Shown piece after piece: positions 46,708 to 64,000 of a stretch of DNA of 64,000 bases. Location: assembly GCF_011045215.1 (NCBI RefSeq), contig NZ_CP049201.1; one strand, 5' to 3'. The position numbers and the translations under genes were made by a program. The stretch comes from Escherichia coli (GTDB lineage Bacteria; Pseudomonadota; Gammaproteobacteria; Enterobacterales; Enterobacteriaceae). Below the pieces are notes generated by a model that was not told the origin of the DNA, did no database searches, and saw only the letters and a program-made list of their open reading frames with translations. Every line of letters starts with the position of its first letter. Within the stretch, counting starts at the first letter, position 1.

Positions 46708-46794
46708 CTTGATCAACGATTAACTATCCACTGGCATAGCCGTGTGATATGATTACAATGGCTATATTTTTAATTTAAATTTAATAGGTAAAAA

Positions 46795-48946: not shown

Positions 48947-49083
48947 TCCTTCATAATCAGTTACCGGAGCAAATTACTTTTCTCCGGTTGGTTAACTGAA
49001 TATTAGTATTAAAATCTGATGGTGTTTATTTTATAAATATCAAATGTAATGGTATTTTCAATAATTATATCTAAGAGCGGTTT

Positions 49084-49893
49084 ATGAGAGTAATTAGCCC
49101 CTTTGAGGAATTGAAGAACTGGTTTAATCTTGATAACTATGAACCGATAAAATCGTTTACAATCAAGGAACTACATAGAGAGATTGTCTTTAGAGAAGCG
49201 ATTTTCGACAGTGTAAATTTTGGATGGGAAGATGATAATCAAAATTTAAGGTCTATCCTTGAAGGTAATCCTATTTTAAGCAGACAAGATAATAATCATG
49301 GTCATTTTGGCAAGGGCCAAAGACATGTTGCGCAGGTTAGCTTTGGTGATATAAAAAAATTAGAGAATAAGTTGATAATGTTTAGCATGGATTTTTTTGA
49401 AGAAAATGGTGATTTCAAAAAAGAGTTGAAAAAGAAACCAATAACAAAAACTATGAGAGACTTTTTTCTCAACAAAAATAGCAGCAAGATGTATGTATCA
49501 TTTGATTTGGGGTTATCTAGTGATGAGGAAATTATATCAGCCCTGCAAACTATGCTTCCAACTCTAAGGAAAGAATACGAGATTGACCCAGTAAAAACAG
49601 AAAAGATAGGGCTCGCAAAAATAAGAAAACTTGTCGATTACAACATTATTCCTATGATGGACTTACTAATTTGGTCAAAATTCAAAAAAGCAAAAATCTC
49701 AAATATGGTCTTGTCTCGTGTGTTGTATCCTGATTTCACTCACGAGATTAGAGGCGAAGATCACATTAAAGATACAGACAGGCCCATTGCTGAGAAGGCT
49801 TTAAATGGAGAGATAACTCGTAGTTTGGAGTACTTTCTTAGTAAAAACAGTCATCTCATCAACATACCGATTTCAGAACTCGGATCTCTCTAG
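49084..49893 (+). CDS. Hypothetical protein (269 aa), no recognisable motif
   Basis: Long AT-rich ORF, same strand as R-M-like pair. Confidence 0.55.
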   Translation: MRVISPFEELKNWFNLDNYEPIKSFTIKELHREIVFREAIFDSVNFGWEDDNQNLRSILEGNPILSRQDNNHGHFGKGQRHVAQVSFGDIKKLENKLIMFSMDFFEENGDFKKELKKKPITKTMRDFFLNKNSSKMYVSFDLGLSSDEEIISALQTMLPTLRKEYEIDPVKTEKIGLAKIRKLVDYNIIPMMDLLIWSKFKKAKISNMVLSRVLYPDFTHEIRGEDHIKDTDRPIAEKALNGEITRSLEYFLSKNSHLINIPISELGSL

Positions 49894-50058
49894 CTATAAA
49901 TCATCATGCAATTGTCAAGGGGATGGTGAAAATATTTTTCTTCCCCTAAATTTCTCTCCATTCTTTCCTCATCTAAATTTTCAGTTATCAGCACTCCCTT
50001 CATAGATACAAATCTGTGTGGCTAATATCTCCTTAACGGAAGCGGAGGAGACAGCCAA

Positions 50059-50265
50059 ATGAATACAACCAATCAAAGCTTAATTCGTTTACCAGAAGTC
50101 TTGAAACGAACTGGTTTCGGCAAGGCCTGGATCTATCGTCTGATCAGTGAAGGTCGGTTTCCGGCACCCGTTAAGATCGGAATTCGTGCCGTTGCTTTTG
50201 TCGAGAGTGAAGTTGACGAGTGGATTCTATCAGTTATCGAAACAAACAGAATTAAAGTTGCTTAA
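50059..50265 (+). CDS. alpA: AlpA-family transcriptional regulator / excisionase-like DNA-binding protein
   Basis: 68 aa; LIRLPEVLKRTGFGKAWIYRLISEGRFPAPVKIG...VAFVESEVDEWI matches the AlpA/MerR-like HTH of prophage CP4-57-type regulators. Confidence 0.85.
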   Translation: MNTTNQSLIRLPEVLKRTGFGKAWIYRLISEGRFPAPVKIGIRAVAFVESEVDEWILSVIETNRIKVA

Positions 50266-50286
50266 TTAAACCTAGGAGAGATTTTT

Positions 50287-50601
50287 ATGAATATCGAAGA
50301 ATTTATGAATGAAGAAAACCATATGTGCAATTTAGGCGAGGATCTTTTTTGCAAGATCTTCGAACCCGGAGCGATTTATGATTTGCCGAATAGCGATTTT
50401 AATAAAGAAATCATTTACTGGCTCAGTCAGTATCTTGTCGGAAATTTGAGACAACCTTTAGACGCGATCTCTGAGCTTGATATTTTCGAGCAGTTTTATG
50501 TTTACGAGACATGGTTCTCGCTAATTAAATGCCCAGATGAAATTAGAAATTTATCGAAACGGATAATTCGATATCAGATTGGGTTAAAAACCATTCTTTG
50601 A
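50287..50601 (+). CDS. Hypothetical protein (104 aa)
   Basis: ORF immediately downstream of alpA, 21-nt gap. Confidence 0.5.
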   Translation: MNIEEFMNEENHMCNLGEDLFCKIFEPGAIYDLPNSDFNKEIIYWLSQYLVGNLRQPLDAISELDIFEQFYVYETWFSLIKCPDEIRNLSKRIIRYQIGLKTIL

Positions 50602-50732
50602 AAGAACCTATATTTAGTACTATTTTGTAAATTGCATTGTTGAAATGATAGTGCTATTTGCTTTTTGATTTACAAAACATCTTTAACTTCTTTTAAAATA
50701 ATGGGTTAACTATTTTAAGTGAAAAGAAAGGA

Positions 50733-50762
50733 TTATAATATCCCTCTAGAGGGATATTATAA
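50733..50762. promoter_or_regulatory. 30-bp perfect palindrome upstream of the recombinase operon (candidate operator or recombination site)
   Basis: TTATAATATCCCTCTAGAGGGATATTATAA is perfectly self-complementary; lies about 130 bp upstream of the first recombinase gene in an AT-rich leader. Confidence 0.5.
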
Positions 50763-50893
50763 ATTTTCGGCCGGTATGCGTCATTGTAAAAGGGAATAAT
50801 ATTAAATTCAGGAAAATATATTTGTAAATTGCTTATGTTATATGCTTTATTTATTTTCACTGACAATTAAATGTAAATAGAGGCGATATTACT

Positions 50894-52156
50894 TTGAAAT
50901 ATAAAATAAAAAGATTGAAGAATAAAGATGGTATCAGAAGTTGCATTATTATTAATGAGAGCAACGGATTACCCTTGGTTTATTCTAACTTATATATGAG
51001 TGTTATTTCACGAACAAATAGCTATTCATTTTCAACAATGGAAGCAATAGCAAATGCTTTGCTTTTATTTGAAAGATATAATGCTTACATGAATGTGGAT
51101 GTTTTTGATATGGTAAATCCTGACATCGAAAAACTTGTCTCGAACAAAGGATATTTATTCGGGTTAATGAATGCCCTTTCTTACAGAAACGACTTAGAGA
51201 ATGTTACAAGCATTCTTAAAGAACAACATGTCTCTAAAAGAACCCTTTATTTCAAGATAATGACAATTGAAAATTACGTCAAATGGTTTTTTGATAACAT
51301 TGCTATCAATAATATTGATTCTTCTCGTTATGAAGCAATCAGTCGAGCATTTGATTTTATAAAGCCAAGAATAGAGAACGGAAAGAATTACAATATTGAA
51401 AGCGAAAGCAAATCATTGACAAATGAGCAAGTTACAACTTTGACTGATATGGTAAGTGTTAAATCTAAGATTAATCCATTTTCGGAGCATGTAAGGTTTC
51501 GAAATAATCTAATAATTAAAATTTTATTAGAGACAGGTATTAGGGGAGGGGAACTACTTAATATTAAGTTGGTTGATTTTGACTATGTCCACAAAAGTCT
51601 ATGCATAGTAAGAAGGCCAGATGATCAAAACGAACCACGATTAAGGCAACCATTGGTTAAAACTTTAGAAAGAAAAATACCATTGAGTATAGAATTGACT
51701 GAGTTAATACAGAATTATATTAGTGATTTCAGAGGTAAGCAGTGTCATGCAGGGGAGCATGACTATCTGCTTGTTACTCATAGCAGTAAAGGTCAATTAG
51801 GTCATGCATTAACTATTTCAGGTTATCAGAAAATTTTCGAACAAATTAGGAAAAATAGTAATGTTTTGAGCGATATTGTGGGGCATTCGCTAAGACATAC
51901 TTGGAATGTGAAATTCTCAGAAATGATGCTCATGAATTCGAACTCTCAGGAATATATTACTTATGAGAAAGTAAGAAATTATCTTATGGGGTGGAAAAAG
52001 AATAGTACAACCTCAGATATCTATAACCAAGCATTTATAGCACAAGAAAGCCGAAAAATAATGGCTGTTATTAATCCACTCAAAAACATAGTAGAGGACA
52101 AATCCAATGTTTCAAACTCTAAGAAAGCTACAAGAAAGTCAATATTCGGTTTTTGA
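50894..52156 (+). CDS. Tyrosine recombinase 1 of a three-recombinase operon
   Basis: 420-aa ORF (TTG at 50894; first ATG at 50996); conserved ETGIRGGELLNIKLVDF (box I Arg), HSLRHTW (HxxR) and ...SDIYNQ (Tyr) catalytic elements. Confidence 0.75.
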   Translation: MKYKIKRLKNKDGIRSCIIINESNGLPLVYSNLYMSVISRTNSYSFSTMEAIANALLLFERYNAYMNVDVFDMVNPDIEKLVSNKGYLFGLMNALSYRNDLENVTSILKEQHVSKRTLYFKIMTIENYVKWFFDNIAINNIDSSRYEAISRAFDFIKPRIENGKNYNIESESKSLTNEQVTTLTDMVSVKSKINPFSEHVRFRNNLIIKILLETGIRGGELLNIKLVDFDYVHKSLCIVRRPDDQNEPRLRQPLVKTLERKIPLSIELTELIQNYISDFRGKQCHAGEHDYLLVTHSSKGQLGHALTISGYQKIFEQIRKNSNVLSDIVGHSLRHTWNVKFSEMMLMNSNSQEYITYEKVRNYLMGWKKNSTTSDIYNQAFIAQESRKIMAVINPLKNIVEDKSNVSNSKKATRKSIFGF

Positions 52157-53432
52157 AACCAAGGATGGTAATTTCAAAGTGAACTTTTCTTATTCCAAGT
52201 GGAAGATAAGTGAAAGTATAACATTGAACATTGATTCTTTAAGAGTGGTCATCAGTGCATATATACCTATCAAAACCACTTTGGCATATTTCGCTATAAA
52301 TTATAGTGCCAGTTATACTAAGAAAATGTTTTATGCAGTAAAGCATTACATTAAGGCCTGTAATACGAATGATAGCTTGTTTTCTAAAGATTGCATAAAG
52401 TATTACTATAAAGTTGTGAGCTCATTAGATTACACACATGCAGAGACAGTCAAATATTTTTTTATGAAGATGAGTGGTCTTTACCCATCTTTGTTTTCGG
52501 CAGAAGCAATCATATTTTTAGAAAATATTAAAGTTAAAAAAACAAATGCAAACAAGTCTATAAAGACACATGATTATAAAAAAGGTCCCTTTAGTGACTC
52601 GCAATTAAAGGTAATTATAGATTCTGTAGCGATAGCTTATAAGGAAGAAAAGGTAAGTCTGTCAAACTATCTGCTAACCTTCCTTGTTGCATATTCCGGG
52701 CGGCGACCTATGCAAATATCTCAACTTGAAGCTGGTGATCTCTTTGCTTTTAATGGAGAGTACTTTCTCAATATCCCAAGAATTAAACAACGAAATGGAT
52801 ATAGAAAAGAGTTTAGAAAATTACAAATTCCAGAAGAGCTTTTTAGCCAATTGACATATCTCGTTGAAGCTGTGAATTCGCTGGTCAGTGACACATTAAA
52901 AATCGATTTAAGTGAAAAACAAAAGAGAAAACTACCAATTTTTATAAACACATATCCATTCAAAAAAGGATGTGTTGAGCTAAACATGATTGAAAGTGGT
53001 GGATTAAAACTTAACCCCTATGCCATAACACTAAAAATAAGGAACACTATAAATCGTTCAATAAATGAATATCAAGCCTATCTGGGGTGTATAAATTCGC
53101 GCAGATTTAGATATTCATTAGGCACTAAGGTTGCACAATTGGGTTATAGTCCTTCACTGATAGCAAATGTTTTGGACCATTCTTCAATCAATTCTGTTAT
53201 GAGTTATATAGAAAATACAGCGGAAAATGGCAAGAGAATTAATGAAGCTGTAAATGAACTAATGAAGCCACTGGCTAACAAATTTATTGAGGGAAAAGAG
53301 CTTCAGAAAGAGTTAGATTCTTTGAAGCATTTGATAGAAGAATACTGCGGTGGATATAAAACTAACTCTTTTGATAATACAGCAATATCGTTAGTAACTA
53401 ATTCTATCGACGATATGATCAATAGCATTTAA
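52107..53432 (+). CDS. Tyrosine recombinase 2 (divergent catalytic motifs)
   Basis: 441 aa; SD AGAGGA before ATG; AYSGRRPMQISQLEAGDL (box I), RRFRYSLG...LDHSSINSVMSYIE (box II-like with Tyr); overlaps upstream gene by 50 nt. Confidence 0.7.
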   Translation: MFQTLRKLQESQYSVFETKDGNFKVNFSYSKWKISESITLNIDSLRVVISAYIPIKTTLAYFAINYSASYTKKMFYAVKHYIKACNTNDSLFSKDCIKYYYKVVSSLDYTHAETVKYFFMKMSGLYPSLFSAEAIIFLENIKVKKTNANKSIKTHDYKKGPFSDSQLKVIIDSVAIAYKEEKVSLSNYLLTFLVAYSGRRPMQISQLEAGDLFAFNGEYFLNIPRIKQRNGYRKEFRKLQIPEELFSQLTYLVEAVNSLVSDTLKIDLSEKQKRKLPIFINTYPFKKGCVELNMIESGGLKLNPYAITLKIRNTINRSINEYQAYLGCINSRRFRYSLGTKVAQLGYSPSLIANVLDHSSINSVMSYIENTAENGKRINEAVNELMKPLANKFIEGKELQKELDSLKHLIEEYCGGYKTNSFDNTAISLVTNSIDDMINSI

Positions 53433-53447
53433 AAGAAGGATAAAGTG

Positions 53448-55052
53448 ATGAAAGAAATCCATGATAAAATGATTAATAACTTCATTATCGCTAATAAGGC
53501 CCATGCGAAAAATTTTGGAAATTTTGAGTGGGATAATTCAAGTTGGGGAGGCGGAATTACATTTTTTAGCGGAATCAAGGTTAGAATGGGGAACAAGAAT
53601 AAGAAATTAATGAATTATAACATTGCAGAGTTCGCAAAAGCATATGTATGGCATGAGTGCTTTCATGATTTATCTGTAGCTTTCAGAGTGCTGAGATTAT
53701 TTAGGATATTAGAAATTGCCATAGGTAAAACAAATAAAGAAGTTAAGATTTCAAGTATAGATCATAAAGTATTAGATGAAGTTATGACTATTGTTCAAGA
53801 AAATTTTGCAATATCCACTTCTTATAAAATATATTTAGATCTTAGGGTATTATGTTCTTTTATGTCTAAGAACGAAATGTTGCCAGAATCCATTACACGA
53901 TGGTCATATCCATTTAAGGCATATGATGCTTACACAAATAGCACAATGGATTCGATGGGAAATTTATCCAATCAGAAAAAACTTCCTGATGAAAAGGCTA
54001 TAGATTTTATTGGTAAAATATTTAGCTCTAATCCAGTTAATGAAAGGGATATATTTACATCTTCTATTTTTGCATTGCTCTTATGTGCTCCATCTCGAAT
54101 TAGTGAAATTATGCTTTTAGAAGAGGACTGTGAAGTTATAGTTGAAGATAGTAATGGCATATCAAGATATGGTTTGCGATTTCTTTCTCTGAAGGGCTTT
54201 GGATACAATACCAAATGGATTCCAGACTGTATGGTTTCTGTAGCTTCAAAGGCTATCATGCGATTGAAAAAACTTACAAGGAATGCAAGGGTTGTTTCTC
54301 GGTTAATAAAAGCAGGGGAAATTAATTTATACGAGTCATTAAACAAAAGTGCGTTTGATTGTTTAACAATTGAAGATCTCCACAAACTTGGCTTTGTTAT
54401 AAATCAATTAAATATCTCCCAAGAAAATCTAAAATTCTTGGCTAAGATAAAACATGGTACAGTCAGTGTAAAAGCATTTTGGATTTATATAGAGCGAAAG
54501 AATGTTAATTCTGAAAATATTAATGCTAATTTATGCTCCATAAATCATAATTTATTGGACTCTATCAAGGGTGCTGATATTTTTACAACAATTAAGGCAT
54601 CTTCAAAGTATTTTAGAGCGGATTTTCGCACCGATAATATGAATAACATATTTCATAGGAATATACATTTTAACTGTGATGGTTCTGTTTTAATTTTCCG
54701 CAGCCATCAAATTAGACATTTACTTAATACTATAGCTCAACGAAGCGTATTGTCAGAGATACAAATTGCCCAATGGTCTGGGAGAAGGAGTGTTAAGCAG
54801 AATTCAGTATATGATCATATGTCTCACAACGAGTTATCAGAACTATCAAGGAAACTATTGAACGGAAACACCTACGAAGAAACAAAAATTTCAGCATCTT
54901 CATTTAATGAACAATCGATTATTATGAATTTGATTAAAGATAAATTTGAAAAACTAGAATTAAAAATCCAAAATTCAGATCCAAGAAAAAGAAAATATAT
55001 TCTGGAAAAAATTAAAGATTTAAGATTGGAAATTGAATACATATTAATGTGA
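53448..55052 (+). CDS. Tyrosine recombinase 3
   Basis: About 534 aa (GTG-ATG at 53445/53448); CAPSRISEIMLLEEDC (box I), HQIRHLLNTIAQ (HxxRH), ...SVYDHMSHNE (Tyr). Confidence 0.7.
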   Translation: MKEIHDKMINNFIIANKAHAKNFGNFEWDNSSWGGGITFFSGIKVRMGNKNKKLMNYNIAEFAKAYVWHECFHDLSVAFRVLRLFRILEIAIGKTNKEVKISSIDHKVLDEVMTIVQENFAISTSYKIYLDLRVLCSFMSKNEMLPESITRWSYPFKAYDAYTNSTMDSMGNLSNQKKLPDEKAIDFIGKIFSSNPVNERDIFTSSIFALLLCAPSRISEIMLLEEDCEVIVEDSNGISRYGLRFLSLKGFGYNTKWIPDCMVSVASKAIMRLKKLTRNARVVSRLIKAGEINLYESLNKSAFDCLTIEDLHKLGFVINQLNISQENLKFLAKIKHGTVSVKAFWIYIERKNVNSENINANLCSINHNLLDSIKGADIFTTIKASSKYFRADFRTDNMNNIFHRNIHFNCDGSVLIFRSHQIRHLLNTIAQRSVLSEIQIAQWSGRRSVKQNSVYDHMSHNELSELSRKLLNGNTYEETKISASSFNEQSIIMNLIKDKFEKLELKIQNSDPRKRKYILEKIKDLRLEIEYILM

Positions 55053-55983: not shown

Positions 55984-56010
55984 AAGCTCCCGAAAGGGAG
56001 CTTCATTTTA
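55982..56010. terminator. Bidirectional intrinsic terminator
   Basis: AGCTCCC-GAAA-GGGAGCT hairpin with flanking A/T runs between convergent genes. Confidence 0.7.
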
Positions 56011-56023
56011 CTAATTTTCTTTA

Positions 56024-56287
56024 TTAATAACTTCCTACTTGCCAGCCATCATCTGATTTTATTAATTTAACTGTTCCAGCTTGCTTTGTTCCGCTCATAT
56101 CCATAATTATATTGCACTTATAGCTTTTATCAGATTCTTTTGTGCAATCTACTTTTTTTACTGAAGTCAGATAGCTTCCAGTCCATTTTCGCATAGCTTT
56201 AAAAATATCATCTTGGGAAGGCTCACTACTACATGCAGTAAGAAGAAATACGGAAATAATAACAGCAAGGACCGAAGATATTTTCAT
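56024..56287 (-). CDS. Small lipoprotein
   Basis: 87 aa; signal peptide with lipobox LLTAC. Confidence 0.6.
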   Translation of the reverse strand: MKISSVLAVIISVFLLTACSSEPSQDDIFKAMRKWTGSYLTSVKKVDCTKESDKSYKCNIIMDMSGTKQAGTVKLIKSDDGWQVGSY

Positions 56288-56311
56288 TAGACTTAATCCT
56301 GATTAAGTATG

Positions 56312-56698
56312 TTACTGAAAAATGCCAGATTTTGTATTATTATTATCAGTAGAGAATGTCCATTTGCTGACAATTTCGCCTTTAAAATCTATTTCAAGAG
56401 TTTTGGACTGAGTCTGTGAACCACCAGTTAGTAGCCCAACTACAGGAATGAAAGTCGAGGCATTGAACTGATTGTTATACATAAAATATCTCCATTGCTC
56501 GTTGCCATCATCAAGAGTCGTTCTTGTATCTGGTTCACCTAACTTAGCGAGTAGCTCGTTCTTAGTAGTCTTGTTTTTAATGATCTTTGACTGAAGACTT
56601 TGTGCAGTTTCATTTTCAATTTGTTGGTTCCCGGATGTTGAGCAGCCAGAAATTAAAAATATTGCAATGAAAAAGGCGGTAACAATAGATTTATTCAT
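56312..56698 (-). CDS. Lipoprotein
   Basis: 128 aa; signal peptide with lipobox LISGC. Confidence 0.6.
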   Translation of the reverse strand: MNKSIVTAFFIAIFLISGCSTSGNQQIENETAQSLQSKIIKNKTTKNELLAKLGEPDTRTTLDDGNEQWRYFMYNNQFNASTFIPVVGLLTGGSQTQSKTLEIDFKGEIVSKWTFSTDNNNTKSGIFQ

Positions 56699-56727
56699 TC
56701 TATCTTCCTTATTATATTTGGTCAGGG

Positions 56728-57006
56728 TTAACTTTTATGTGTGAAAACGGCTCTGTGGGCAAATTTCTTGCGTAAATAAAATCTTAAAGAAATTGCTGAG
56801 GCAAAATAGATAACGACAGTTAATATAAAACTTTGACTGATAGCGAATATGAAGAAAGCAATTACTAACAGCACAATTCCTATGAGTAAAGCTAACCAGG
56901 CCGAAGGTTCACCATAATTTATTGTTGCGTGACAGCCGATACAGACACGAACTCCGAACGGACTCTCTTTGAAGCAGAACGGGCACTTAATGGTCTCTTT
57001 ACTCAT
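56728..57006 (-). CDS. Small membrane protein with N-terminal zinc-ribbon
   Basis: 92 aa; CPFC...CIGCH then one hydrophobic helix. Confidence 0.5.
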   Translation of the reverse strand: MSKETIKCPFCFKESPFGVRVCIGCHATINYGEPSAWLALLIGIVLLVIAFFIFAISQSFILTVVIYFASAISLRFYLRKKFAHRAVFTHKS

Positions 57007-57259
57007 ACAAACTCCGTTTATTCAACAGGTTCCTGATACTACAAATTGTTTAAAAATCATCAGGTTCTTTTCAGGGATTCTCGATGAATAATTATCTTTA
57101 GTAAAATCACTTGTACCGATCGATGTTTGAATCATGATAGGTAAAAACTATCATAACTAGATTATCGATCTGTATTAACGATCAATAATTTCTTGACATA
57201 ATATAAATTAGTTACTGTATAGTTAAGAGTGTTTGAGAATAATCAATACAAGTAATTGT

Positions 57260-58405
57260 CTATAAACGAATTTTTATCGCCTTGTTTAAAGGTTTCATTG
57301 CGTAGATATTTGAGAAGGTCGTGTGTGTTTTGTGAAGAATGGTCTTACCAAAGCTTCTCAGAAGCTCGATGTAATGCTTTATGGAAGCAAGCCACTCTAC
57401 GAATCTGAGATGCTTTTGCCGTTGTACTGCATTTTTTTGAAGAATCTTTCCTACGATTTCGTTTCGTTTGTCTTCTCTAAGCCGTAATTCCAGTTCTGCA
57501 ATTTTTTCAACGATACTTTCCTTTCTCTCAGTGGTTTTCAACACTGTTGCAGGAGCAGGAGCAGCAGGTTGGTCTTTTGTCGATATGTCGCTTCGTAGAG
57601 CTTCTAAGTGGTCGGGGTTGTAGTTAAGCCGATTACTGAGATTTGCCCAGGAGTAGCTCTTGCCCAATTGTGAAGCTTTGAAAGCTATGCCTGTGTATTC
57701 GAAAGAGAAGCCGTTCATTTTACCGGTAGAGGCAATATTGGCCTTCCAAGATACTTCAGCTTCTTCCAGCCTCTTGATAAAAGTTAGAAGGTCCGGCTTA
57801 TCAGATAAACTTTTATCAAGTATCTGCTGCAGAGCTTCTCTTGGTGAAAGCACCCCGGTTCGTTCCGATAGCATTTTCTCATTACGGGACACTCTCTTCC
57901 GCTTCGGTTGTGCTTGCGAGGGGGGAGATGCAGTTTTGGTCACTGTCAGGCCATGAGCGATTTCGAGTTTACTGATGATCTGTGTGCTGATGAGGTTTTC
58001 GTTCCTACCCAAGTAGAGCTTCCCACCATTGAGATCTATGCGACTTGCGATAATGTGTATGTGCTGGCCATCGTCGTCATGAAGCACATAGCAACGAAGG
58101 TGAGTATCCCTGAACCCCATCCTCTTCATGTAGTCATCTGCGATAATGGACCACTGTTCATTCGTTAGTGTTTCACCGTCGGGTAAGCGAAGTGAGTTGT
58201 GCCAAACGGGTTTTGCGACATCTAGGCGAAGATGCTTGGTGCTATCGAATTCAGCGATCATTTCAACGGCTGAATCACTTAACATGTTCCCGCCAATGAC
58301 GACTGGATCGCTTTTGTGGTGTGCTCCCGATTGTAATACATAACGAACAACACCAGCGAAGCTCTTACCCCTCTTGATCTTCCGCATACCCTTCACGAGG
58401 GACAC
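57260..58405 (-). CDS. Mobilisation relaxase (MobA/VirD2-like nuclease domain)
   Basis: 381 aa; three-histidine relaxase motif HDDDGQHIHIIASRIDL; immediately downstream of a MobC-like gene. Confidence 0.75.
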   Translation of the reverse strand: MSLVKGMRKIKRGKSFAGVVRYVLQSGAHHKSDPVVIGGNMLSDSAVEMIAEFDSTKHLRLDVAKPVWHNSLRLPDGETLTNEQWSIIADDYMKRMGFRDTHLRCYVLHDDDGQHIHIIASRIDLNGGKLYLGRNENLISTQIISKLEIAHGLTVTKTASPPSQAQPKRKRVSRNEKMLSERTGVLSPREALQQILDKSLSDKPDLLTFIKRLEEAEVSWKANIASTGKMNGFSFEYTGIAFKASQLGKSYSWANLSNRLNYNPDHLEALRSDISTKDQPAAPAPATVLKTTERKESIVEKIAELELRLREDKRNEIVGKILQKNAVQRQKHLRFVEWLASIKHYIELLRSFGKTILHKTHTTFSNIYAMKPLNKAIKIRL

Positions 58406-58739
58406 TCCAAAAATCTGTTCTTAACAAGTTGTGACGAAGCTCTTCAAGTTGTCGCTTCACAGCGAAAAGCTCTGTATGAGTAAGCTGGCTATCTTTACTC
58501 TTACTGTCGATATGGAGAGCAATACGATTCAACTTTTGTGATATGTCAGACAATTTTTTCCAGGCTTCAGTATTAATTGTCGGTACTACTGGTGGCAGGT
58601 TTTGCAGAAATGACATGCGGAGCCATTCACCTTTACTTTTATTACCTCGTTTTATATTTAAAATCTGTAATTCATTGTTGTTGAGTCGAACACTTATACA
58701 ATGTATTCTAATTCTGTCATCTAATCTTAATTTAGCCAT
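58365..58739 (-). CDS. MobC-family relaxosome accessory protein
   Basis: 124 aa; overlaps relaxase start by 41 nt; sequence pattern typical of MobC. Confidence 0.65.
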   Translation of the reverse strand: MAKLRLDDRIRIHCISVRLNNNELQILNIKRGNKSKGEWLRMSFLQNLPPVVPTINTEAWKKLSDISQKLNRIALHIDSKSKDSQLTHTELFAVKRQLEELRHNLLRTDFWSVPREGYAEDQEG

Positions 58740-58885
58740 ATAAGTTCCTTTTATATGATTTAATATGATTAATGATAGTTATTATTTCCCATTAGTCAAT
58801 AGCAGAACGGTTTTGATATATGGGTTTAATGTGCTAAAAATAAATCTCTCTGAAATAAAGTATTCAAAGATTCCCTAAATTAAAA
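58740..58885 (-). promoter_or_regulatory. Candidate oriT / mob promoter region (inferred from position only)
   Basis: AT-rich 146-bp gap upstream of mobC with short direct repeats (ATATGATT TAAT ATGATT AATGAT). Confidence 0.3.
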
Positions 58886-60049
58886 TTAAGGATGATCTAT
58901 TGAAACAAACTTTTGACTAAACTCCAGCCATCTTGCATTATCAACATCCTTCACAAAAGCAATCAGACCTGCGACATGATTGTAAAAGCCAATTGGAGAG
59001 TCAAATTTTTCATGTCTTGCAACTTCTGAGAGACCAAATTTTTTTATTGAGTAAAGGTGGCGTTCAATACGTTTATAAGTTTGTTTAGATAATCGAGGGA
59101 CATTGCCATCAACAAGTAATCCTAAAACTATTTTTTTTGAACCAGGTCCAGCTACTCTTATTTTGCTTACGTTTTCTTTGAAATGGTGCTTACGAATGAT
59201 GCTGATAATGTTATTTTGTATTTTTCCAACCGAAACACCGTCGGGTAGAGTACCACCGCAGGATAATGTTATATCATCAGCATATCGAGTATAAGTGAAG
59301 CCATATTTATTAGCATATTCAGATAGAGAAATATCTAACTTTACAGTGGCTAAATTACTAAGCATTGGGCTACTCGGTGCCCCTTGAGGTAGCACTCCTA
59401 ACGGCCATGGTTCTGATATGTCCCAAAAAAGGCTCTTCTCTTTATTTTGTCCGTAAAGCTTATATTCCTTAGTTGAGTGCTTAGGAACAGAAATTAGAGA
59501 TTGTAAATGTTGTGGTAAACGTATAGTTGTGCATAGCCTTGATAGTTCAAATGCTATTAATGGCCGATATCCAGCATTTTTAAAAACCATATAAACATCA
59601 GATTCATTTATTGAATAAAAGAAATCGGAAATGTCGAATTGGAAGAGCCATTTAGCACCACAATGCTGTTCTGCACATTTTCTGATGCCACCATTAGGAT
59701 GGAAAGCAAAAGAAGTATTATGGGGAACTAACTTTTTTAATATTTCACTATTGATGAAATGCTGTACTTTAAATATCTCGCCAGTTACAGCATGAATATG
59801 GCGTCTTCCACCTGAACGTTTTTTTATAGCAAACATGCGATAATTTGCTGATTCACGGCGGCGTGATACAGTGGATCGTAGCAAGCGATAATCAACACCA
59901 GTAATTTTTGAAAGATGGCGTAATGTAAAAATTACAGGGAGATTATTTTTCTTCAGATTACTTGCATAATTTCTTAAGTTTAGAGCCTGTGTCTTCCCTA
60001 AGGATGACTCTGCATTTTGATAAAGTTGGTGTGCTGACCAGATTTCCAT
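58886..60049 (-). CDS. Retron-type reverse transcriptase
   Basis: 387 aa; RT motifs FQFDISDFF (A), LPQGAPSSP (B'), YTRYADDITLS (C); by-eye alignment to remembered retron Ec86 RT (QGAPSSP.LANL...YTRYADDLTLS, IDLEDFFPS); C-terminal VLGLLV in place of the retron VTG. Confidence 0.85.
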   Translation of the reverse strand: MEIWSAHQLYQNAESSLGKTQALNLRNYASNLKKNNLPVIFTLRHLSKITGVDYRLLRSTVSRRRESANYRMFAIKKRSGGRRHIHAVTGEIFKVQHFINSEILKKLVPHNTSFAFHPNGGIRKCAEQHCGAKWLFQFDISDFFYSINESDVYMVFKNAGYRPLIAFELSRLCTTIRLPQHLQSLISVPKHSTKEYKLYGQNKEKSLFWDISEPWPLGVLPQGAPSSPMLSNLATVKLDISLSEYANKYGFTYTRYADDITLSCGGTLPDGVSVGKIQNNIISIIRKHHFKENVSKIRVAGPGSKKIVLGLLVDGNVPRLSKQTYKRIERHLYSIKKFGLSEVARHEKFDSPIGFYNHVAGLIAFVKDVDNARWLEFSQKFVSIDHP

Positions 60050-60237
60050 TCACCTATCCTTTGAGCCCAGGGGGCCATCAGTGTCATACATTTTCCGAGT
60101 CCTCGATGGCCGTTAATGTATGACATTGAAGGGCGGCGTAGCCGCCTTTGCGTCAGATCTTTCCAGAGATGTTTCTCCAACATCCCCATCCGTTGTAACA
60201 AAAGCCACAACAGATTCTGTCAAACAAGCGGTGAACT
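60050..60237 (-). ncRNA. Candidate structured ncRNA (possible retron msr-msd-like template) in the PRTase-RT spacer
   Basis: 188-nt non-coding spacer directly upstream of the RT; 15-bp stem (60078-60092 pairs with 60115-60129, one G-U) with 22-nt loop; adjacent GGCGGC-GTA-GCCGCC hairpin (60132-60146). Confidence 0.4.
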
Positions 60238-61458
60238 TCACTCATCATTGTTTAACGGCTGAACGGAGTGCTGATCAGCACACCAAGACTCTGGAATGTA
60301 AAGACCAAAATCCCATACACTATCGTTTTTAACATGCCTAGAATTTACAAGTATGTCAAGTCCGAATTTAGATAATCGTTTTTGAGTTGTCAATAGTCCT
60401 AATGTCTCTGCATATATGAGTAGTTTTTCTACATACGAACAATCAACATTCAAACGTAAGGCAATGCTTTTGTTATCTCTGACACCTCTTTTTATAAGTT
60501 TTAGTAAATTTATAATTTCGGGAGATAAAGATGAATGGGGGGAAGTGTTATGCTTTGTTCCATTTTCTAACAAGGCAAGCAGCCATCCTGGAATTGCTCT
60601 ATCAGGCATTAGTCCTTGCCATTTTTTATTAGAAAACCATAGTATTCCAGGAAGGTTATTAGGGACGCTATGATAAAAAATTATATTAGATAAAACATTA
60701 CCATAGCCAAGACGAGCCCATGGAGGAATTTTGGTTTGATTTTTACAAAGATTGATTATTTCATTATACTGCTCACCCCACCGAGTTTCTAACCAATTTT
60801 CATTATATACGATGTTACTTATGAAATTGATTTTTTCAGATTTTCTATATTTTCTTACTCCATGGTCTGAGCCGCGAATAGTATTGATTATTCTATTTTC
60901 AGAACCTAGTGTTCTGGCGAAAGAAATTAAAGTTAATCTTACTAGTCCTAAACTCCACCAACTTAAAAAGGTAGGGTTATCGAGCATGGCATTAATAAAT
61001 CCGGATACTCTATCACCACTACCAATCGAATCATCAATAAGTAAAAAATCGTTGACTTTAGATTTTTTCAGATCATTGAGTGATGGATGATCTAAAAACA
61101 TAGTTTTATTAGACCGCACAAGGTTTGAAATAATTGAATATACTAAGTCTTCGCTACCTTGCGAATGACCTGGTCTATTAACAACATCACCATTAAGGTC
61201 CCATAATACTTGTTTGTCTGGATCTAATTTGCGAACTGAATAAAGGGCATAATTTTTATTTTTTGGTAAATCAGAAATGCTCTTTTGAAGCCATATGGTA
61301 AACTCATCTCTACTTACAAAAGTTAACTTGCTCAAGATGTTTTTTGCAATCGCTTTTTGGCTGCTATTAAATTGCATAAGCCATTGAGCTATTTCCTGAG
61401 AGGATTCAATTTTTTCTACTGAAAGTATTTTAAATTTAGGTTTGTCTCTTGTTTTCAT
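60238..61458 (-). CDS. Phosphoribosyltransferase-like protein (putative RT-associated effector)
   Basis: 406 aa; PRPP-binding-like motif KVNDFLLIDDSIGSGDR (hydrophobic strand, DD, small-Gly); encoded immediately upstream of and co-directional with the RT. Confidence 0.55.
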   Translation of the reverse strand: MKTRDKPKFKILSVEKIESSQEIAQWLMQFNSSQKAIAKNILSKLTFVSRDEFTIWLQKSISDLPKNKNYALYSVRKLDPDKQVLWDLNGDVVNRPGHSQGSEDLVYSIISNLVRSNKTMFLDHPSLNDLKKSKVNDFLLIDDSIGSGDRVSGFINAMLDNPTFLSWWSLGLVRLTLISFARTLGSENRIINTIRGSDHGVRKYRKSEKINFISNIVYNENWLETRWGEQYNEIINLCKNQTKIPPWARLGYGNVLSNIIFYHSVPNNLPGILWFSNKKWQGLMPDRAIPGWLLALLENGTKHNTSPHSSLSPEIINLLKLIKRGVRDNKSIALRLNVDCSYVEKLLIYAETLGLLTTQKRLSKFGLDILVNSRHVKNDSVWDFGLYIPESWCADQHSVQPLNNDE

Positions 61459-61693
61459 TTTTTTTAACCACTGTCAGGGCAATTGTTATTTCATAACATA
61501 AAAAGTAATGATGGTAAAGGTTTTGTTGTATCATTAACCTTCTTTATAACTGAGTAGACTAAGTTTAGTACTCTTATACGAAGCTAAATGAGCTAAATAT
61601 TAAATACTAAAATGTAATGGCGGATATTTTTCAACCGAAGGGCGAAAAACAAGGGAACGCAAAGAAGCGGAGCTTCGATGAGTTAGCCCTTGC

Positions 61694-62296
61694 TTATTCA
61701 TATGATTTGTATTTCTTTTCATCTACTAAATTTATTATGGACGATGAGGTTTTATATATCAACTTTACATTGTGTAAAGATATATTGTGTTTGCTAATAA
61801 AATATAAAAGATCCAATAGCATCTGTTCTTGCCGTTCTTGTGGAAACTCTAATTTTACGATTGGAGTAAATTCAACAATAAAACCACTATTCAACAGTAG
61901 TTTTATGTAGCTAAATGAGTTTGGCGTAACTGTTTTGATTTTTATTATTTTATTAGTAATTAGATGCTTATGGTTTATAATAATGTGAGGGTTGAGCAGT
62001 GCCATATCATATGACATGAATGTTAAACCATGACTATCTATTATGTTCAAGTCGATACCAAGTTGTATAAACATATCGATTATTGCTTTGCTATGTATCC
62101 AGTTATAAAATAAAGGTGTCCTTCCATAGTTATCTAAATGATTTAGGTCGGCTCCTGCAGCTAAAAGAGATGTTGTAAGTAAATAGTCATTAGAATAAAA
62201 TAATGGTGTACGACCACAATTATCCTTTAAGTTTATTAAACCATTGTCTATGAATATATTAGATAAATTATTGTGCATTTTACCTCCTTTTATCAT
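61694..62296 (-). CDS. Ankyrin-repeat protein
   Basis: 200-aa ORF; two clear ankyrin repeats (GRTPLFYS...LLAAGADLNHLDNYGRTPLFY) plus degenerate third (DSHGLTFMS). Confidence 0.6.
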   Translation of the reverse strand: MIKGGKMHNNLSNIFIDNGLINLKDNCGRTPLFYSNDYLLTTSLLAAGADLNHLDNYGRTPLFYNWIHSKAIIDMFIQLGIDLNIIDSHGLTFMSYDMALLNPHIIINHKHLITNKIIKIKTVTPNSFSYIKLLLNSGFIVEFTPIVKLEFPQERQEQMLLDLLYFISKHNISLHNVKLIYKTSSSIINLVDEKKYKSYE

Positions 62297-62339
62297 TATG
62301 TATATTAAAAAAAGGAGGTTGTCAATATTTAGAGGTTAG

Positions 62340-62588
62340 TTAACCACCAAATGTTTTTTTCTTAGGTTGTGGGGGCTCTGCATTAAGTATGATAGTTTTA
62401 ATATTTGCATTTATTTGATTGATATTATCAGTCAATATATTAATAACTGATAATGCTTCTACAGGTGTGCTAAATGATGATTCTAAAAACACGCCTGAGC
62501 CTTTCAAAAATATATGGTAAGTGAGTATGCCATTTTCTTCATTTTCATATATATCATAAAGTTCATTTACTGTTTCGTACAATTTCAT
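62340..62588 (-). CDS. Hypothetical small protein (82 aa)
   Basis: ORF between the ATPase-partner pair and the ankyrin gene. Confidence 0.45.
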   Translation of the reverse strand: MKLYETVNELYDIYENEENGILTYHIFLKGSGVFLESSFSTPVEALSVINILTDNINQINANIKTIILNAEPPQPKKKTFGG

Positions 62589-62643
62589 TATTATACTCCT
62601 TGATAATGATGGTTTATTTCAATGGGCTCGCGATATCACTACC

Positions 62644-63519
62644 TTATAAATGATCTCCAATGTGAGCAATAGCGATTTGTGCCGGTCTATCAGGAATTCT
62701 ATTAAAGAAGCCAAAGTATATTCTATTGTAGTAATAAGTTCCTTTTCGATTAGTATTGTCCATGTATTCAAGTTTATAATGGAATTCACAATTCACGTCT
62801 TTATAGATACAATCACCCACTTTAAAATCACGTTTTAATTCCCCTATGGCTCGTTTATTTTTGCCTCCACCTTCTGGTGTTACAAGATAAGGTAACGATG
62901 AATTCATAATTCTAATGTTATGTTGTGAGTCATTAGGTATAATTGTATAGTTATTAACAAAATAAAGAAATTCAGTGATGCTTTTCAAAAAATTTTCATA
63001 TCCACCTTCAATTTTCCTAATAAAATTAAAGGTTTGTGGTGGGTTATCCAAAAAAATGACATTCTTGAAAATGTTTTTAATATTGTCAGCATATTCATCA
63101 CAATCCGATGGGAATTCATCAAGGATTTTCTTAGAAAGATCAATTATTTCACTTTCACTAGAAACTGTATTATCCTTTTTTAAAGGTATGTCTGGAGATT
63201 GATAGGCACAGAGTTTTCTTTCGGCAAGTATCGATGGGGATGTATTGATGATATTTAGAAGTTCATTGCAGCCTATTTCATCCAATAAACTAATTTGGCC
63301 TATTTTATAATACTCATTAACAAGGCCACCGTAATCAGGGTTTGTTGAAAATAATTTAGTGACAAATTTTCCATCAAATTCATTGGAGCGAAGAAACTTT
63401 ATAAAATCTGAATCCACTCTCTCTACAAGTGCTTTAAGATCTTTAATCTGGTTAAAAATCTTAATTTGTTCTTCTTCAAGAGAAAAACTATCTATGAACA
63501 AGCAAACACCTGCTTTCAT
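62644..63519 (-). CDS. Hypothetical protein, partner of upstream ATPase (possible degenerate HNH-like nuclease)
   Basis: 291 aa; starts 9 nt after the ATPase gene stop; C-terminal C-x6-C-x2-H-x9-N-x10-N segment (DCIYKDVNCEFHYKLEYMDNTNRKGTYYYNRIY) loosely HNH-like. Confidence 0.5.
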   Translation of the reverse strand: MKAGVCLFIDSFSLEEEQIKIFNQIKDLKALVERVDSDFIKFLRSNEFDGKFVTKLFSTNPDYGGLVNEYYKIGQISLLDEIGCNELLNIINTSPSILAERKLCAYQSPDIPLKKDNTVSSESEIIDLSKKILDEFPSDCDEYADNIKNIFKNVIFLDNPPQTFNFIRKIEGGYENFLKSITEFLYFVNNYTIIPNDSQHNIRIMNSSLPYLVTPEGGGKNKRAIGELKRDFKVGDCIYKDVNCEFHYKLEYMDNTNRKGTYYYNRIYFGFFNRIPDRPAQIAIAHIGDHL

Positions 63520-63528
63520 GAAATCCCC

Positions 63529-64000
63529 TTAATTTTCAATATCAGGAGTATTAAATGATCCTGTCATAATGGTATACATATCAATTGATTGCTGGTCAAA
63601 GAATCCTTTCGGCCAACTAGAAAGTTTTCCATCTTTGCCAATAGATATCTTTTCTGCAGTAGATTCATTATTCTCATGTGAAATATAAAATAACGAAATT
63701 AGCTCAGGTGAAAAGTCAGGAGATGTTCTTGCTACGACACGGATTCCGTTGAGAAGGTGATCGCTATGAGTTTCTATGAATACCTGTACTCCCGCTTGAG
63801 CAGTGTAAGCTATTAATCTACCCATATAGCTTTGTCCTCTAGGGTGCAAATGGGCTTCCGGGTTTTCTAAAACTACTAATTCGCCCGGTTTTGCTAAAAG
63901 TAATGCTGAAACAATACTCAAAGCATAGCTATAACCAAAACCAATGTTTTTGGGTTTAGTTTGTTTTCCTGACTCAGCCTGTATTGTGTTATAAGCAATG
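63529..64000 (-). CDS. ABC/AAA15-type ATPase, C-terminal part (DUF3696-like); 5' end beyond window
   Basis: Frame open to window edge (ORF-track 'M' is TTG); ...GFGYSYALSIVSALLLAKPGELVVLENPEAHLHP (signature/Walker B/D-loop) and FIETHSDHLL (H-loop). Confidence 0.7.
   Translation of the reverse strand, partial: IAYNTIQAESGKQTKPKNIGFGYSYALSIVSALLLAKPGELVVLENPEAHLHPRGQSYMGRLIAYTAQAGVQVFIETHSDHLLNGIRVVARTSPDFSPELISLFYISHENNESTAEKISIGKDGKLSSWPKGFFDQQSIDMYTIMTGSFNTPDIEN

What the first reader, a model, noticed from the sequence alone, without database searches (positions are those of the whole stretch)
60050..60237. Strong hairpins in the PRTase-RT spacer: candidate RT template ncRNA
A 15-bp stem (60078-60092 against 60115-60129) with a 22-nt loop and an adjacent GC hairpin occupy a spacer with no plausible coding capacity, immediately 5' of the RT start codon on the minus strand. 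This is where retron msr-msd RNAs or DRT-type template RNAs normally sit. A second possible location is the 235-bp gap upstream of the PRTase gene (61459-61693).
Basis: seen in the sequence. Interest (0 to 1): 0.7.

Follow-up and report, generated by a model that had tools for sequence, protein, structure and literature searches.

The report
Known retron template RNA, type III-A3
The hairpins between the phosphoribosyltransferase and reverse-transcriptase genes are the core of a retron template RNA (msr-msd) whose sequence has already been published, so the finding is real but ordinary.

Summary
The stem 60129-60115/60092-60078 exists (14 pairs plus one A·C mismatch, 22-nt loop), and so does the GC hairpin 60146-60132. 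The spacer folds far better than shuffles (z -6.0).

The flanking genes are a type III-A retron RT (PADLOC 5.6e-160) and a PRTase-wHTH effector (2e-93), in the same order as the characterised Retron-Eco11.

The RNA is larger than the spacer, about 60285..60027 on the minus strand. Its a2/a1 inverted repeats lie inside the 3' end of the PRTase gene and the 5' end of the RT gene.

Thirty-one distinct homologous RNAs share the fold. Cells are 95% paired, against 34-43% in slid controls, and 45 of 72 pairs show compensatory changes.

The RNA is 256/258 identical to the ncRNA printed for retron Mestre-1373 (Klebsiella pneumoniae ISC21, type III-A3) in the Khan et al. retron census. The 89%-identical Mestre-1374 gave a sequenced 114-nt RT-DNA. 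By homology, the reverse-transcribed part here is 60167..60054 and the branching G is 60259.

The second proposed site (61459-61693) is not an ncRNA copy. Verdict: already known, low interest.

One side observation may be new: in half of the lineages the PRTase frame stays open through the whole ncRNA.

The parts
60027..60285 (-). Whole retron ncRNA (a2 repeat, msr, msd, a1 repeat), about 259 nt
   Evidence: MFE -118 kcal/mol, z -8.8. Covariance model R1 built from 31 homologues hits 60028-60286 at 251.5 bits, the only site in the window apart from its palindromic mirror on the + strand. It is 256/258 identical to the published Mestre-1373 ncRNA.
60271..60285 (-). IRa2 outer arm, inside the PRTase 3' coding region (codons for ...SWCADQ)
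   Evidence: Pairs with 60041..60027 (15 bp in the MFE). In helix 1 of A2, 7 of 15 pairs have compensatory changes and 96.6% of cells are paired.
60260..60267 (-). IRa2 inner arm (UCCGUUCA)
   Evidence: Pairs with UGAAUGGA 60052..60045. Helix 2 is 99.5% paired. UUCA/UGAA switches to UUUA/UAAA in 3 sequences and to CUCA/UGAG in 1.
60259..60259 (-). Predicted branching (priming) G
   Evidence: Invariant G in the conserved UUYA-G-CCG, directly after the inner repeat (column 28). This is the same position as Eco11 rG28 (CAUUUA-G-CG). It was not tested experimentally here.
60219..60256 (-). msr stem-loop 1 (variable hairpin); its loop holds the PRTase stop codon 60240..60238
   Evidence: Helix 4 has 5 of 6 base pairs with compensatory changes; for example column 34/69 is UA 16, AU 10, GC 3.
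60189..60214 (-). msr stem-loop 2 (UCUGUUGUGGC-UUUU-GUUACAACGGA)
   Evidence: Helix 5 has 10 of 11 pairs with compensatory changes.
60165..60187 (-). msr stem-loop 3 (GGGGAUGUU-GGAGA-AACAUCUCU); RT-DNA synthesis is predicted to stop at its base
   Evidence: Helix 6 is 99.6% paired, with 5 of 9 pairs compensatory. The 3' end of the Mestre-1374 RT-DNA maps to window 60167.
60054..60167 (-). Predicted msd, the reverse-transcribed template (114 nt), giving an msDNA of about 114 nt
   Evidence: Mapped from the sequenced RT-DNA of Mestre-1374, whose ncRNA is 89% identical. The predicted DNA folds into three hairpins at -22.2 kcal/mol, z -4.1. This is an inference by homology.
60132..60146 (-).
   Evidence: Helix 7: column 146/158 is GC 14 versus AU 14, and 96.8% of cells are paired.
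60078..60129 (-).
   Evidence: Helix 8 has 13 of 14 pairs with compensatory changes; for example column 163/219 is CG 13, GC 11, UA 5.
60065..60075 (-). Small hairpin GCCC-CCU-GGGC; equivalent to DSLa of Eco11
   Evidence: Present in the MFE and centroid folds and conserved as GGCCC...GGG. Eco11 has CCCC-UUCG-GGGG at the same place.
60045..60052 (-). IRa1 inner arm (UGAAUGGA), which contains the RT start codon 60049..60047
   Evidence: It is preceded by the conserved AAAGGAKAGG (60062..60053), which looks like a Shine-Dalgarno sequence.
60027..60041 (-). IRa1 outer arm, inside RT codons 3-8 (..WSAHQ..)
   Evidence: Pairs with 60285..60271.
58886..60049 (-). Retron reverse transcriptase, 387 aa, YADD catalytic motif
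   Evidence: PADLOC RT_III-A PDLC02944, E 5.6e-160. It is 37% identical to the Eco11 RT. Members of its 90%-identity cluster occur in Klebsiella, Salmonella, E. coli and Enterobacter.
60238..61458 (-). Effector: PRTase-like domain plus C-terminal winged HTH, 406 aa
   Evidence: PADLOC PRTase_III-A, E 2e-93. Pfam PRTase-CE 9.9e-23 and wHTH-PRTase_assc 5.2e-12. The PRPP-type motif LLIDDSIGSGDR is visible in the translation.
61459..61693 (-). Upstream gap: probable terminator of the preceding gene plus the operon promoter region, not an ncRNA copy
   Evidence: No hit with model R1 or Rfam. Only modest structure (z -2.9, 2 of 200 shuffles as good). Terminator-like hairpin at 61676..61664. The gap is part of the block shared with related enterobacterial loci, 61702..58062.

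Best explanation
The region is the msr-msd non-coding RNA of a type III-A3 retron, a three-part anti-phage system made of a PRTase-wHTH effector, an ncRNA and an RT. It sits on a low-GC island next to tRNA-Leu in an E. coli chromosome.

Shown here: the RNA spans about 60285..60027 on the minus strand. Two-arm inverted repeats (15 bp and 8 bp), located in the ends of the flanking genes, close a multi-hairpin fold. That fold is conserved, with abundant compensatory changes, in 31 homologues.

Inferred from homologues (Mestre-1374 RT-DNA, Eco11 genetics):
- The repeat duplex presents the invariant G at 60259.
- The RT primes from that G's 2'-OH and copies the template from G60054 back to about U60167, at the base of msr stem-loop 3.

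Further inferred from Retron-Eco11:
- The RT-msDNA complex binds the PRTase effector and keeps it silent.
- Phage helicases of the UvsW/D10 type act on the msDNA complex and switch the effector on.
- PRPP is then depleted and the infection aborts.
For: - Protein families: RT_III-A 5.6e-160 and PRTase_III-A 2e-93; PRTase-CE plus wHTH-PRTase_assc.
- Architecture matches Retron-Eco11: the order is effector-ncRNA-RT, the ncRNA overlaps both genes, the repeat has two arms, a G follows the repeat, there are three msr stem-loops, and the msd has a long and a small hairpin.
- Thermodynamics: z -6.0 for the spacer and z -8.8 for the whole RNA.
- Comparative evidence: in alignment A2 of 31 distinct RNAs, RNAalifold predicts 72 pairs, 45 of them with compensatory changes. 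Cells are 95.3% paired, against 33.6-42.6% when partners are slid. The covariation score is 0.434 against 0.066-0.094, and 0 of 500 shuffles reach the observed values.
- A covariance model finds one site in the window, at 251.5 bits.
- Literature identity: 256/258 identical to the ncRNA of Mestre-1373 (Klebsiella pneumoniae ISC21, clade 9, type III-A3). That retron supported precise human-cell editing at 4.5x Eco1.
- Mestre-1374 (Providencia heimbachae, 229/258 identical) produced RT-DNA at 1.09x Eco1, and its sequenced 114-nt product maps to window 60167..60054.
Against: - There are no RT-DNA, branch-point or transcript data for this exact locus in bacteria. The census lists RT-DNA production for Mestre-1373 as undetermined.
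- The branching G and the msd ends are transferred by homology, and the census defines ends by coverage thresholds.
- The G is preceded by UUCA rather than the commonest UUA.
- The covariance model does not detect the Eco11 ncRNA, and the RT is only 37% identical to the Eco11 RT. The defence mechanism (helicase trigger, PRPP depletion) is therefore an extrapolation across a deep split within III-A3.
- The effector's C-terminal peptide (LYIPESWCAD) only loosely matches the YYPxxLRxx peptide described for the Eco11 cluster.
Confidence: 0.93

Rival explanations
1. The hairpins are only an intercistronic mRNA structure (a leader, attenuator or processing site controlling RT translation) and are not reverse transcribed.
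For: The RT start codon and a Shine-Dalgarno-like AAAGGAUAGG lie in or next to the inner repeat stem, so the fold must affect RT translation. In 20 of 31 homologues the PRTase frame runs through the region and stops at a TGA abutting the RT ATG, which suggests translational coupling.
Against: A pure leader does not explain the conserved retron layout: flanking repeats, an invariant G, and msr and msd hairpins. It also does not explain the sequenced RT-DNA that maps to this very segment in the 89%-identical Mestre-1374, or the editing activity of the near-identical Mestre-1373 ncRNA. A translational role may coexist with templating but cannot replace it.
Confidence: 0.03
2. The RNA is a DRT-type (UG/Abi class) template RNA used for rolling-circle or homopolymer cDNA synthesis, rather than a retron msr-msd.
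For: Weak sub-threshold NCBIfam hits to Drt2 (39.5 bits, cut-off 390) and Drt3a (24.9 bits, cut-off 200) reflect only the shared RT fold.
Against: The best matches are retron families by a wide margin (RT_III-A at 532 bits). The RNA has retron a2/a1 repeats and a priming G. The homologue's product is a discrete 114-nt copy of the msd.
Confidence: 0.01
3. The 'spacer' is decayed coding sequence: the former C-terminal tail of the PRTase, cut off by a recent stop codon, with its structure incidental.
For: In 9 of 18 sequence clusters the PRTase frame is open across the whole region, against about 7% expected from shuffles. The window has an early TGA (60240..60238) and later stops.
Against: Variability shows no codon-position periodicity in the region (entropy 0.66/0.54/0.64), whereas base pairing is maintained by compensatory changes. 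RNA/DNA structure, not peptide sequence, is what is conserved. The two readings are not exclusive, but coding is not the primary function.
Confidence: 0.02

Closest known systems
Retron Mestre-1373 (Klebsiella pneumoniae ISC21; clade 9, type III-A3) in Khan et al., 'An experimental census of retrons for DNA production and genome editing' (bioRxiv 10.1101/2024.01.25.577267 / PMC10849725)
   Same: The published ncRNA is 256/258 identical to window 60284..60028, differing by one loop substitution at 60236 and one extra T in the printed sequence. The 90%-identity cluster of the window RT includes Klebsiella pneumoniae proteins.
   Different: The host here is E. coli; core genes in the window are 99.7% identical to E. 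coli. The census tested only RT plus ncRNA in human cells (0.52% precise editing, 4.5x Eco1). It has no bacterial RT-DNA data and did not include the effector.
Retron Mestre-1374 (Providencia heimbachae; type III-A3), same census
   Same: The ncRNA is 229/258 identical with the same fold. RT-DNA was produced at 1.09x Eco1, and the sequenced 114-nt product defines the msd as the segment homologous to 60167..60054.
   Different: The sequence around the priming G reads UUAC-G-CCG instead of UUCA-G-CCG, and there are several substitutions in the msr and in the msd loop.
Retron-Eco11 (E. coli EC2608; type III-A3), Garcia-Rodriguez et al., NAR 2025 (PMC12746101)
   Same: The tripartite order is PRTase-wHTH, ncRNA, RT. 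The ncRNA overlaps both genes. The IRa2/IRa1 repeat has two arms, and the outer arm encodes the effector's C-terminal peptide. A G follows the inner arm. There are three msr stem-loops, the msd has a long and a small hairpin, and the RT ATG lies inside IRa1.
   Different: The RT is only 37% identical. The ncRNA sequence is not detected by the model of this family. Eco11's msdDNA is 101 nt with two DNA hairpins, against a predicted 114 nt with three. Eco11's effector stop lies between the repeat arms, whereas here it lies in the loop of stem-loop 1. The C-terminal peptide is YYPxxLRxx there and LYIPxxWCxx here.
Classical retron msr-msd, e.g. Retron-Eco1 (Ec86)
   Same: a1/a2 inverted repeats, a priming G at the end of the 5' repeat, msr hairpins followed by a long msd hairpin, and the ncRNA immediately upstream of the RT (general retron knowledge).
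   Different: The effector type differs (NDT in Eco1). In Eco1 the ncRNA precedes all genes, whereas here it lies between effector and RT and overlaps both coding regions.

Membership tests
Retron (tripartite RT / ncRNA / effector system) | RT belongs to the retron RT lineage | tested here: met
   PADLOC RT_III-A PDLC02944, E 5.6e-160, 532 bits, over the full length; all the next best hits are also retron RT models. The NCBIfam retron St85-family model scores 175.5 bits, below its 235 cut-off, as expected for a different retron clade. The YADD catalytic motif is present.
Retron (tripartite RT / ncRNA / effector system) | A structured ncRNA adjacent to the RT, closed by a1/a2 inverted repeats | tested here: met
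   15-bp outer arm (60285..60271 with 60041..60027) and 8-bp inner arm (60267..60260 with 60052..60045). Both arms are conserved, with compensatory changes, in 31 homologues.
Retron (tripartite RT / ncRNA / effector system) | A conserved priming (branching) G at the end of the 5' repeat | tested here: met
   An invariant G (column 28, window 60259) in UUYA-G-CCG directly follows the inner arm in all 31 sequences. It is positionally equivalent to Eco11 G28, whose mutation abolishes function. Its chemistry was not tested.
Retron (tripartite RT / ncRNA / effector system) | Production of msDNA (RT-DNA) joined 2'-5' to the msr RNA | not testable with these tools
   The evidence is indirect. Mestre-1374 (89% identical ncRNA) gives a sequenced 114-nt RT-DNA, and Mestre-1373 (99% identical) supports templated editing in human cells.
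Retron type III-A3 (Mestre et al. 2020) | [quoted passage not shown] | tested here: met
   PADLOC PRTase_III-A 2e-93. Pfam PRTase-CE (residues 24-285) and wHTH-PRTase_assc (317-394) lie in one 406-aa protein.
Retron type III-A3 (Mestre et al. 2020) | RT of clade 9, and assignment of the system to III-A3 in the published classification | tested here: met
   The census table lists Mestre-1373, whose ncRNA is 256/258 identical to this one, as clade 9, III-A3.
Retron type III-A3 (Mestre et al. 2020) | Effector C-terminal peptide YYPxxLRxx (cluster 67_3 as described for Eco11) | tested here: inconclusive
   The window has LYIPESWCAD and the family has [SG]LY[IV]PxxWCxx. The Y, the P and the spacing are kept, but LR is replaced by WC, and the peptide is not at the very C-terminus. 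This marks a divergent sub-branch rather than a clear pass or fail.
Retron type III-A3 (Mestre et al. 2020) | ncRNA of the 'type IIIA' fold, lying between effector and RT and overlapping both | tested here: met
   The element order is the same as in the Eco11 fold: two-arm repeat, G, three msr hairpins, long hairpin, small hairpin, CAAAG, then a repeat arm with the RT ATG. Sequence-level homology to Eco11 was not detected by model R1.
DRT / UG-Abi defence reverse transcriptases with template ncRNA | RT belongs to a UG/Abi class (e.g. Drt2, Drt3a) | tested here: not met
   Drt2 scores 39.5 bits (cut-off 390) and Drt3a 24.9 bits (cut-off 200), far below the retron models.
Rfam-curated RNA family | Match to any Rfam 15 covariance model | tested here: not met
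   There is no relevant hit in 56000-64000 at E<=1. The ncRNA is published but not curated in Rfam, and it is not annotated in RefSeq records that hold the same locus.

The most novel reading that the evidence does not exclude
The PRTase reading frame runs on through the entire ncRNA (about 68 codons) in 9 of 18 sequence clusters (20 of 31 distinct RNAs) of this family. It stops at a TGA that directly abuts the RT start (TGAATG). This would be a selected feature, for example ribosomes translating through the msr-msd to unfold the repeat stem that buries the RT start codon and so couple RT synthesis to effector synthesis, or to partition transcripts between mRNA and ncRNA roles. On this reading the E. 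coli/Klebsiella version in the window is a derived state that lost the arrangement through an early stop.
Probability: 0.25. Interest if true: 0.45.

Novelty: already known. Interest (0 to 1): 0.12.

Why it matters
For genome annotation, this shows that the unannotated 188-nt 'spacer' in this E. coli island, and in the two complete E. coli genomes that share it, is a functional retron ncRNA that RefSeq and Rfam do not mark. It also shows that its true ends lie inside the neighbouring genes.

Biologically it adds nothing new. The sequence, its retron type and its use as an editing template are published, and the defence mechanism of the type has been worked out for Retron-Eco11.

The only potentially new point is the side observation that most relatives keep the effector's reading frame open across the whole ncRNA. 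This could bear on how retron operons balance translation against ncRNA folding.

Tried and rejected
- Megablast of the locus against PLSDB plasmids found no match. tblastn there found only distant RTs, at most 39% identical.
- Rfam found nothing relevant.
It gave only 7 close loci, so closer relatives were fetched by exact-protein look-up and by scanning for the conserved RNA motif CTCTGGAAAGANCTGACG. Most metagenome motif hits were chance matches, and these were filtered out by requiring the flanking UUYAGCCG and RTRARTGGA anchors.
- My first fold of the spacer alone closed on GUUCACC/GGUGAAU. I rejected this stem because GUUCACC lies in the variable loop of stem-loop 1 and is not conserved, whereas the coding-flank repeats are conserved and covary.
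- RNAalifold's 3-bp helix GCC/GGC (columns 28-30 with 222-224) is invariant and cannot be tested, and it would pair the priming G. I left it out of the model.
- The second candidate site, 61459-61693, has no model hit and only weak structure.
- A test for codon periodicity in the read-through tail was negative.
- Supplementary tables of Mestre 2020 and of the Eco11 paper are not held, so the subtype rests on the census table.
- Model R1 did not find the Eco11 ncRNA or most distant III-A loci. The only weak hits were L027 (20.6 bits), directly upstream of its RT, and a partial hit in L012.

Full report
**Observation.**
On the minus strand the spacer runs from the PRTase stop codon (60240..60238) to the RT ATG (60049..60047). 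It has 14 Watson-Crick pairs and one A·C mismatch (60126/60081), with a 22-nt loop. Next to it lies GGCGGC-UAC-GCCGCC (60146..60132). As RNA, 60250..60040 folds to -80 kcal/mol, against -55.5 +/- 4.1 for dinucleotide shuffles (z -6.0, 0 of 200 as good).

**The genes.**
The downstream ORF (58886-60049, 387 aa, YADD motif) matches PADLOC RT_III-A at E 5.6e-160. The upstream ORF (60238-61458, 406 aa) matches PRTase_III-A at 2e-93, and it carries Pfam PRTase-CE plus wHTH-PRTase_assc domains. UG/DRT models score far below their cut-offs. This is therefore a type III-A retron in the nomenclature of Mestre et al. 2020 (PMC7736814).

The one characterised relative of this type is Retron-Eco11 (PMC12746101). 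It has the same order: effector, ncRNA, RT. Its ncRNA overlaps the ends of both genes. It has a two-arm IRa2/IRa1 repeat and a branching G directly after the repeat. It also has three msr stem-loops and an msd with one long and one small hairpin.

**True extent of the RNA.**
I folded 310 nt upstream of the RT start in the window and in ten homologous loci. This showed that the hairpins are enclosed by a long inverted repeat located in the coding flanks. In the window, 60285..60271 (PRTase codons ...SWCADQ) pairs with 60041..60027 (RT codons 3-8), and UCCGUUCA (60267..60260) pairs with UGAAUGGA (60052..60045). The latter contains the RT start codon. The full element 60286..60026 folds to -118 kcal/mol, z -8.8.

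My first fold had closed the spacer alone on GUUCACC/GGUGAAU. That stem is an artefact of truncation, because GUUCACC lies in a non-conserved loop.

**Comparative test.**
The RT has more than 2000 homologues. I collected loci in three ways:
- a genome scan;
- exact-protein look-ups;
- scans of viral and metagenome contigs for the conserved single-stranded motif CTCTGGAAAGANCTGACG, with chance hits filtered out using flanking anchors.

Thirty-one distinct RNAs align in 275 columns with few indels (A2). RNAalifold predicts 72 pairs, 45 of them with compensatory double changes. For that structure:
- 95.3% of cells form standard pairs, against 33.6-42.6% when the 3' partners are slid by 1-3 columns;
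- the covariation score is 0.434, against 0.066-0.094;
- 0 of 500 column shuffles reach the observed values.

In the GC hairpin, one pair switches between GC and AU 14:14. Both repeat arms covary despite coding constraints (UUCA/UGAA to UUUA/UAAA or CUCA/UGAG).

A covariance model built from A2 finds one site in the window, 60028-60286, at 251.5 bits; the weak + strand hit is its palindromic mirror. It finds nothing in the 61459-61693 gap. That gap shows only modest structure (z -2.9), a terminator-like hairpin and probably the operon promoter. It belongs to the block shared with related loci (61702..58062).

**Already published.**
Members of the RT's 90%-identity cluster come from Klebsiella, Salmonella, E. 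coli and Enterobacter. The retron census of Khan et al. (PMC10849725) lists retron 'Terminal 1373' as Klebsiella pneumoniae ISC21, clade 9, type III-A3. The ncRNA printed for it is 256/258 identical to window 60284..60028. That retron was tested only in human cells, where it gave 0.52% precise editing (4.5x Eco1). Its bacterial RT-DNA status is 'undetermined'.

Its neighbour, Terminal 1374 (Providencia heimbachae), is 229/258 identical. It made RT-DNA at 1.09x Eco1, and the sequenced product is 114 nt: CTATCCTTTGAGCCC...TTAGATCTTGCCAGA. Mapped onto the window, the template is 60167..60054. The first copied base is then G60054, two bases 5' of the inner repeat arm. Synthesis ends at the base of msr stem-loop 3.

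The predicted 114-nt DNA folds into three hairpins (-22.2 kcal/mol, z -4.1). The msr comprises the priming G (60259, invariant in UUYA-G-CCG) and stem-loops 1-3 (60256..60165). These boundaries are inferences by homology, and nothing was measured for this locus.

**Mechanism.**
The shown steps are the RNA fold, its conservation, its association with the RT and PRTase, and its sequence identity to a published retron ncRNA. The priming site and template limits are inferred from close homologues. The rest is inferred from Retron-Eco11 (37% RT identity). On that model the msDNA is needed for the RT to hold the PRTase effector. Phage UvsW/D10-type helicases then activate the complex, and PRPP falls and the infection aborts.

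This last step crosses a deep split. The model of this RNA family does not detect the Eco11 ncRNA, and the effector's C-terminal peptide is LYIPxxWCxx rather than YYPxxLRxx.

**Context.**
The window is an E. coli chromosome; mgtA-treR-treB at 20-24 kb is 99.7% identical to E. coli. GC content drops from about 52% to about 33% right after tRNA-Leu(CAA) at 45183-45267. The island carries an integrase, a type II restriction-modification pair and three consecutive ORFs, at least two of which encode tyrosine recombinases. It also carries a MobC-like ORF with a MobA/P-type relaxase, the retron, and NsnB/NsnC-like defence genes.

The same retron block occurs in only 2 of 5426 complete E. coli genomes. 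RefSeq annotates nothing in the spacer there.

**Side observation.**
In 20 of 31 RNAs (9 of 18 clusters at 85% identity) the PRTase frame stays open through the entire ncRNA. It ends at the TGA of the conserved GGUGAAUGG, directly abutting the RT ATG. The other two frames are open in 4 and 1 of the 31 sequences, and dinucleotide shuffles give an open frame about 7% of the time. Public gene calls follow this, giving PRTases of 467-469 aa.

Variability shows no codon periodicity, so the peptide itself does not look selected. Translational coupling to the RT is a possible reason. In the window the frame is closed early, which is why a 'spacer' exists here at all.

**Verdict.**
It is already in the literature. 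Novelty: already known. Interest: low.

Noticed in passing
window 60027-60285 versus homologous loci L001, L084, L085, L090, L096, L100, L130, L141, L143, L146, L148, L168, L169, L173, L178, L183, L189, L190, L198, L203: In 20 of 31 distinct family members (9 of 18 clusters) the PRTase ORF reads through the whole ncRNA (about 68 extra codons) and stops at a TGA abutting the RT ATG (TGAATG). The other two frames are open in 4/31 and 1/31, and shuffles give about 7%. There is no codon-position periodicity. The window has lost this arrangement through a TGA at 60240..60238 and later stops. It may reflect translational coupling or dual use of the sequence, and I did not see it described in the papers read.
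   Followed up: partly
window 60365-60393 (minus strand): A promoter-like site, TTGACA-17-TAAATT, lies inside the PRTase gene about 80 nt upstream of the ncRNA 5' repeat. It could give a separate ncRNA-RT transcript. Promoter-like sites are not enriched over shuffles in this AT-rich region (20 found, 16.9 expected).
   Followed up: no
window 62644-63921 (minus strand): ORFs matching PADLOC NsnC (6.3e-94, 291 aa) and the C-terminal part of NsnB (9.7e-47; the ORF runs towards the window end) lie just upstream of the retron. This is a second candidate defence system in the same island.
   Followed up: no
window 61694-62296 (minus strand): A 200-aa ORF with weak ankyrin-repeat similarity (Legionella AnkY/AnkH models, E 1e-4 to 1e-3) lies between the Nsn-like genes and the retron. 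It sits just outside the block shared with related retron loci, which ends at about 61702.
   Followed up: no
window 45183-55052: The island boundary lies at tRNA-Leu(CAA) 45183-45267, where GC drops from about 52% to about 33%. It is followed by an integrase (45457-46707), a type II cytosine methyltransferase and restriction enzyme (46795-48946), and three consecutive ORFs at 50894-55052. The first two of these match tyrosine recombinases/integrases and the third (53445-55052) matches no family.
   Followed up: partly
window 57260-58739 (minus strand): A MobA/P-type relaxase (381 aa; TraI_MobP 3.3e-18) and a small upstream ORF lie immediately downstream of the RT. They are conserved together with the retron in E. 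coli strain 300444 (L212) and in L081, so the retron appears to travel as cargo of a mobilisable element.
   Followed up: partly
L007:2734-3022 (Planctomycetales bacterium 10988): A variant ncRNA of the same family (140.7 bits) lacks msr stem-loop 2 and has an insertion of about 60 nt, forming extra hairpins, between the small msd hairpin and the 3' repeat.
   Followed up: no
L088 (IMGVR_UViG_3300045988_182374, 26 kb): A near-identical copy of the retron (97% over 3.4 kb) sits on a contig classified as viral in IMG/VR. This suggests either carriage by a phage-like element or a misclassified mobile island.
   Followed up: no
window 61459-61540 versus L081/L212: Gene callers and PGAP give the PRTase 431 aa in near-identical loci by using an upstream start. 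In the window an extra A in an A-run (AAAAAAAA versus AAAAAAA) just before the conserved ATGAAAACAAGAGAC takes that extension out of frame. The 406-aa start (61458) is therefore probably the real one everywhere.
   Followed up: partly
L105 and L181 (metagenome contigs): Two family members look degenerate. In L105 the RT ORF is truncated to 185 aa and the upstream PRTase frame stops before the ncRNA. In L181 the RT ORF is truncated to 16 aa and the GC hairpin has a 4-nt deletion.
   Followed up: no
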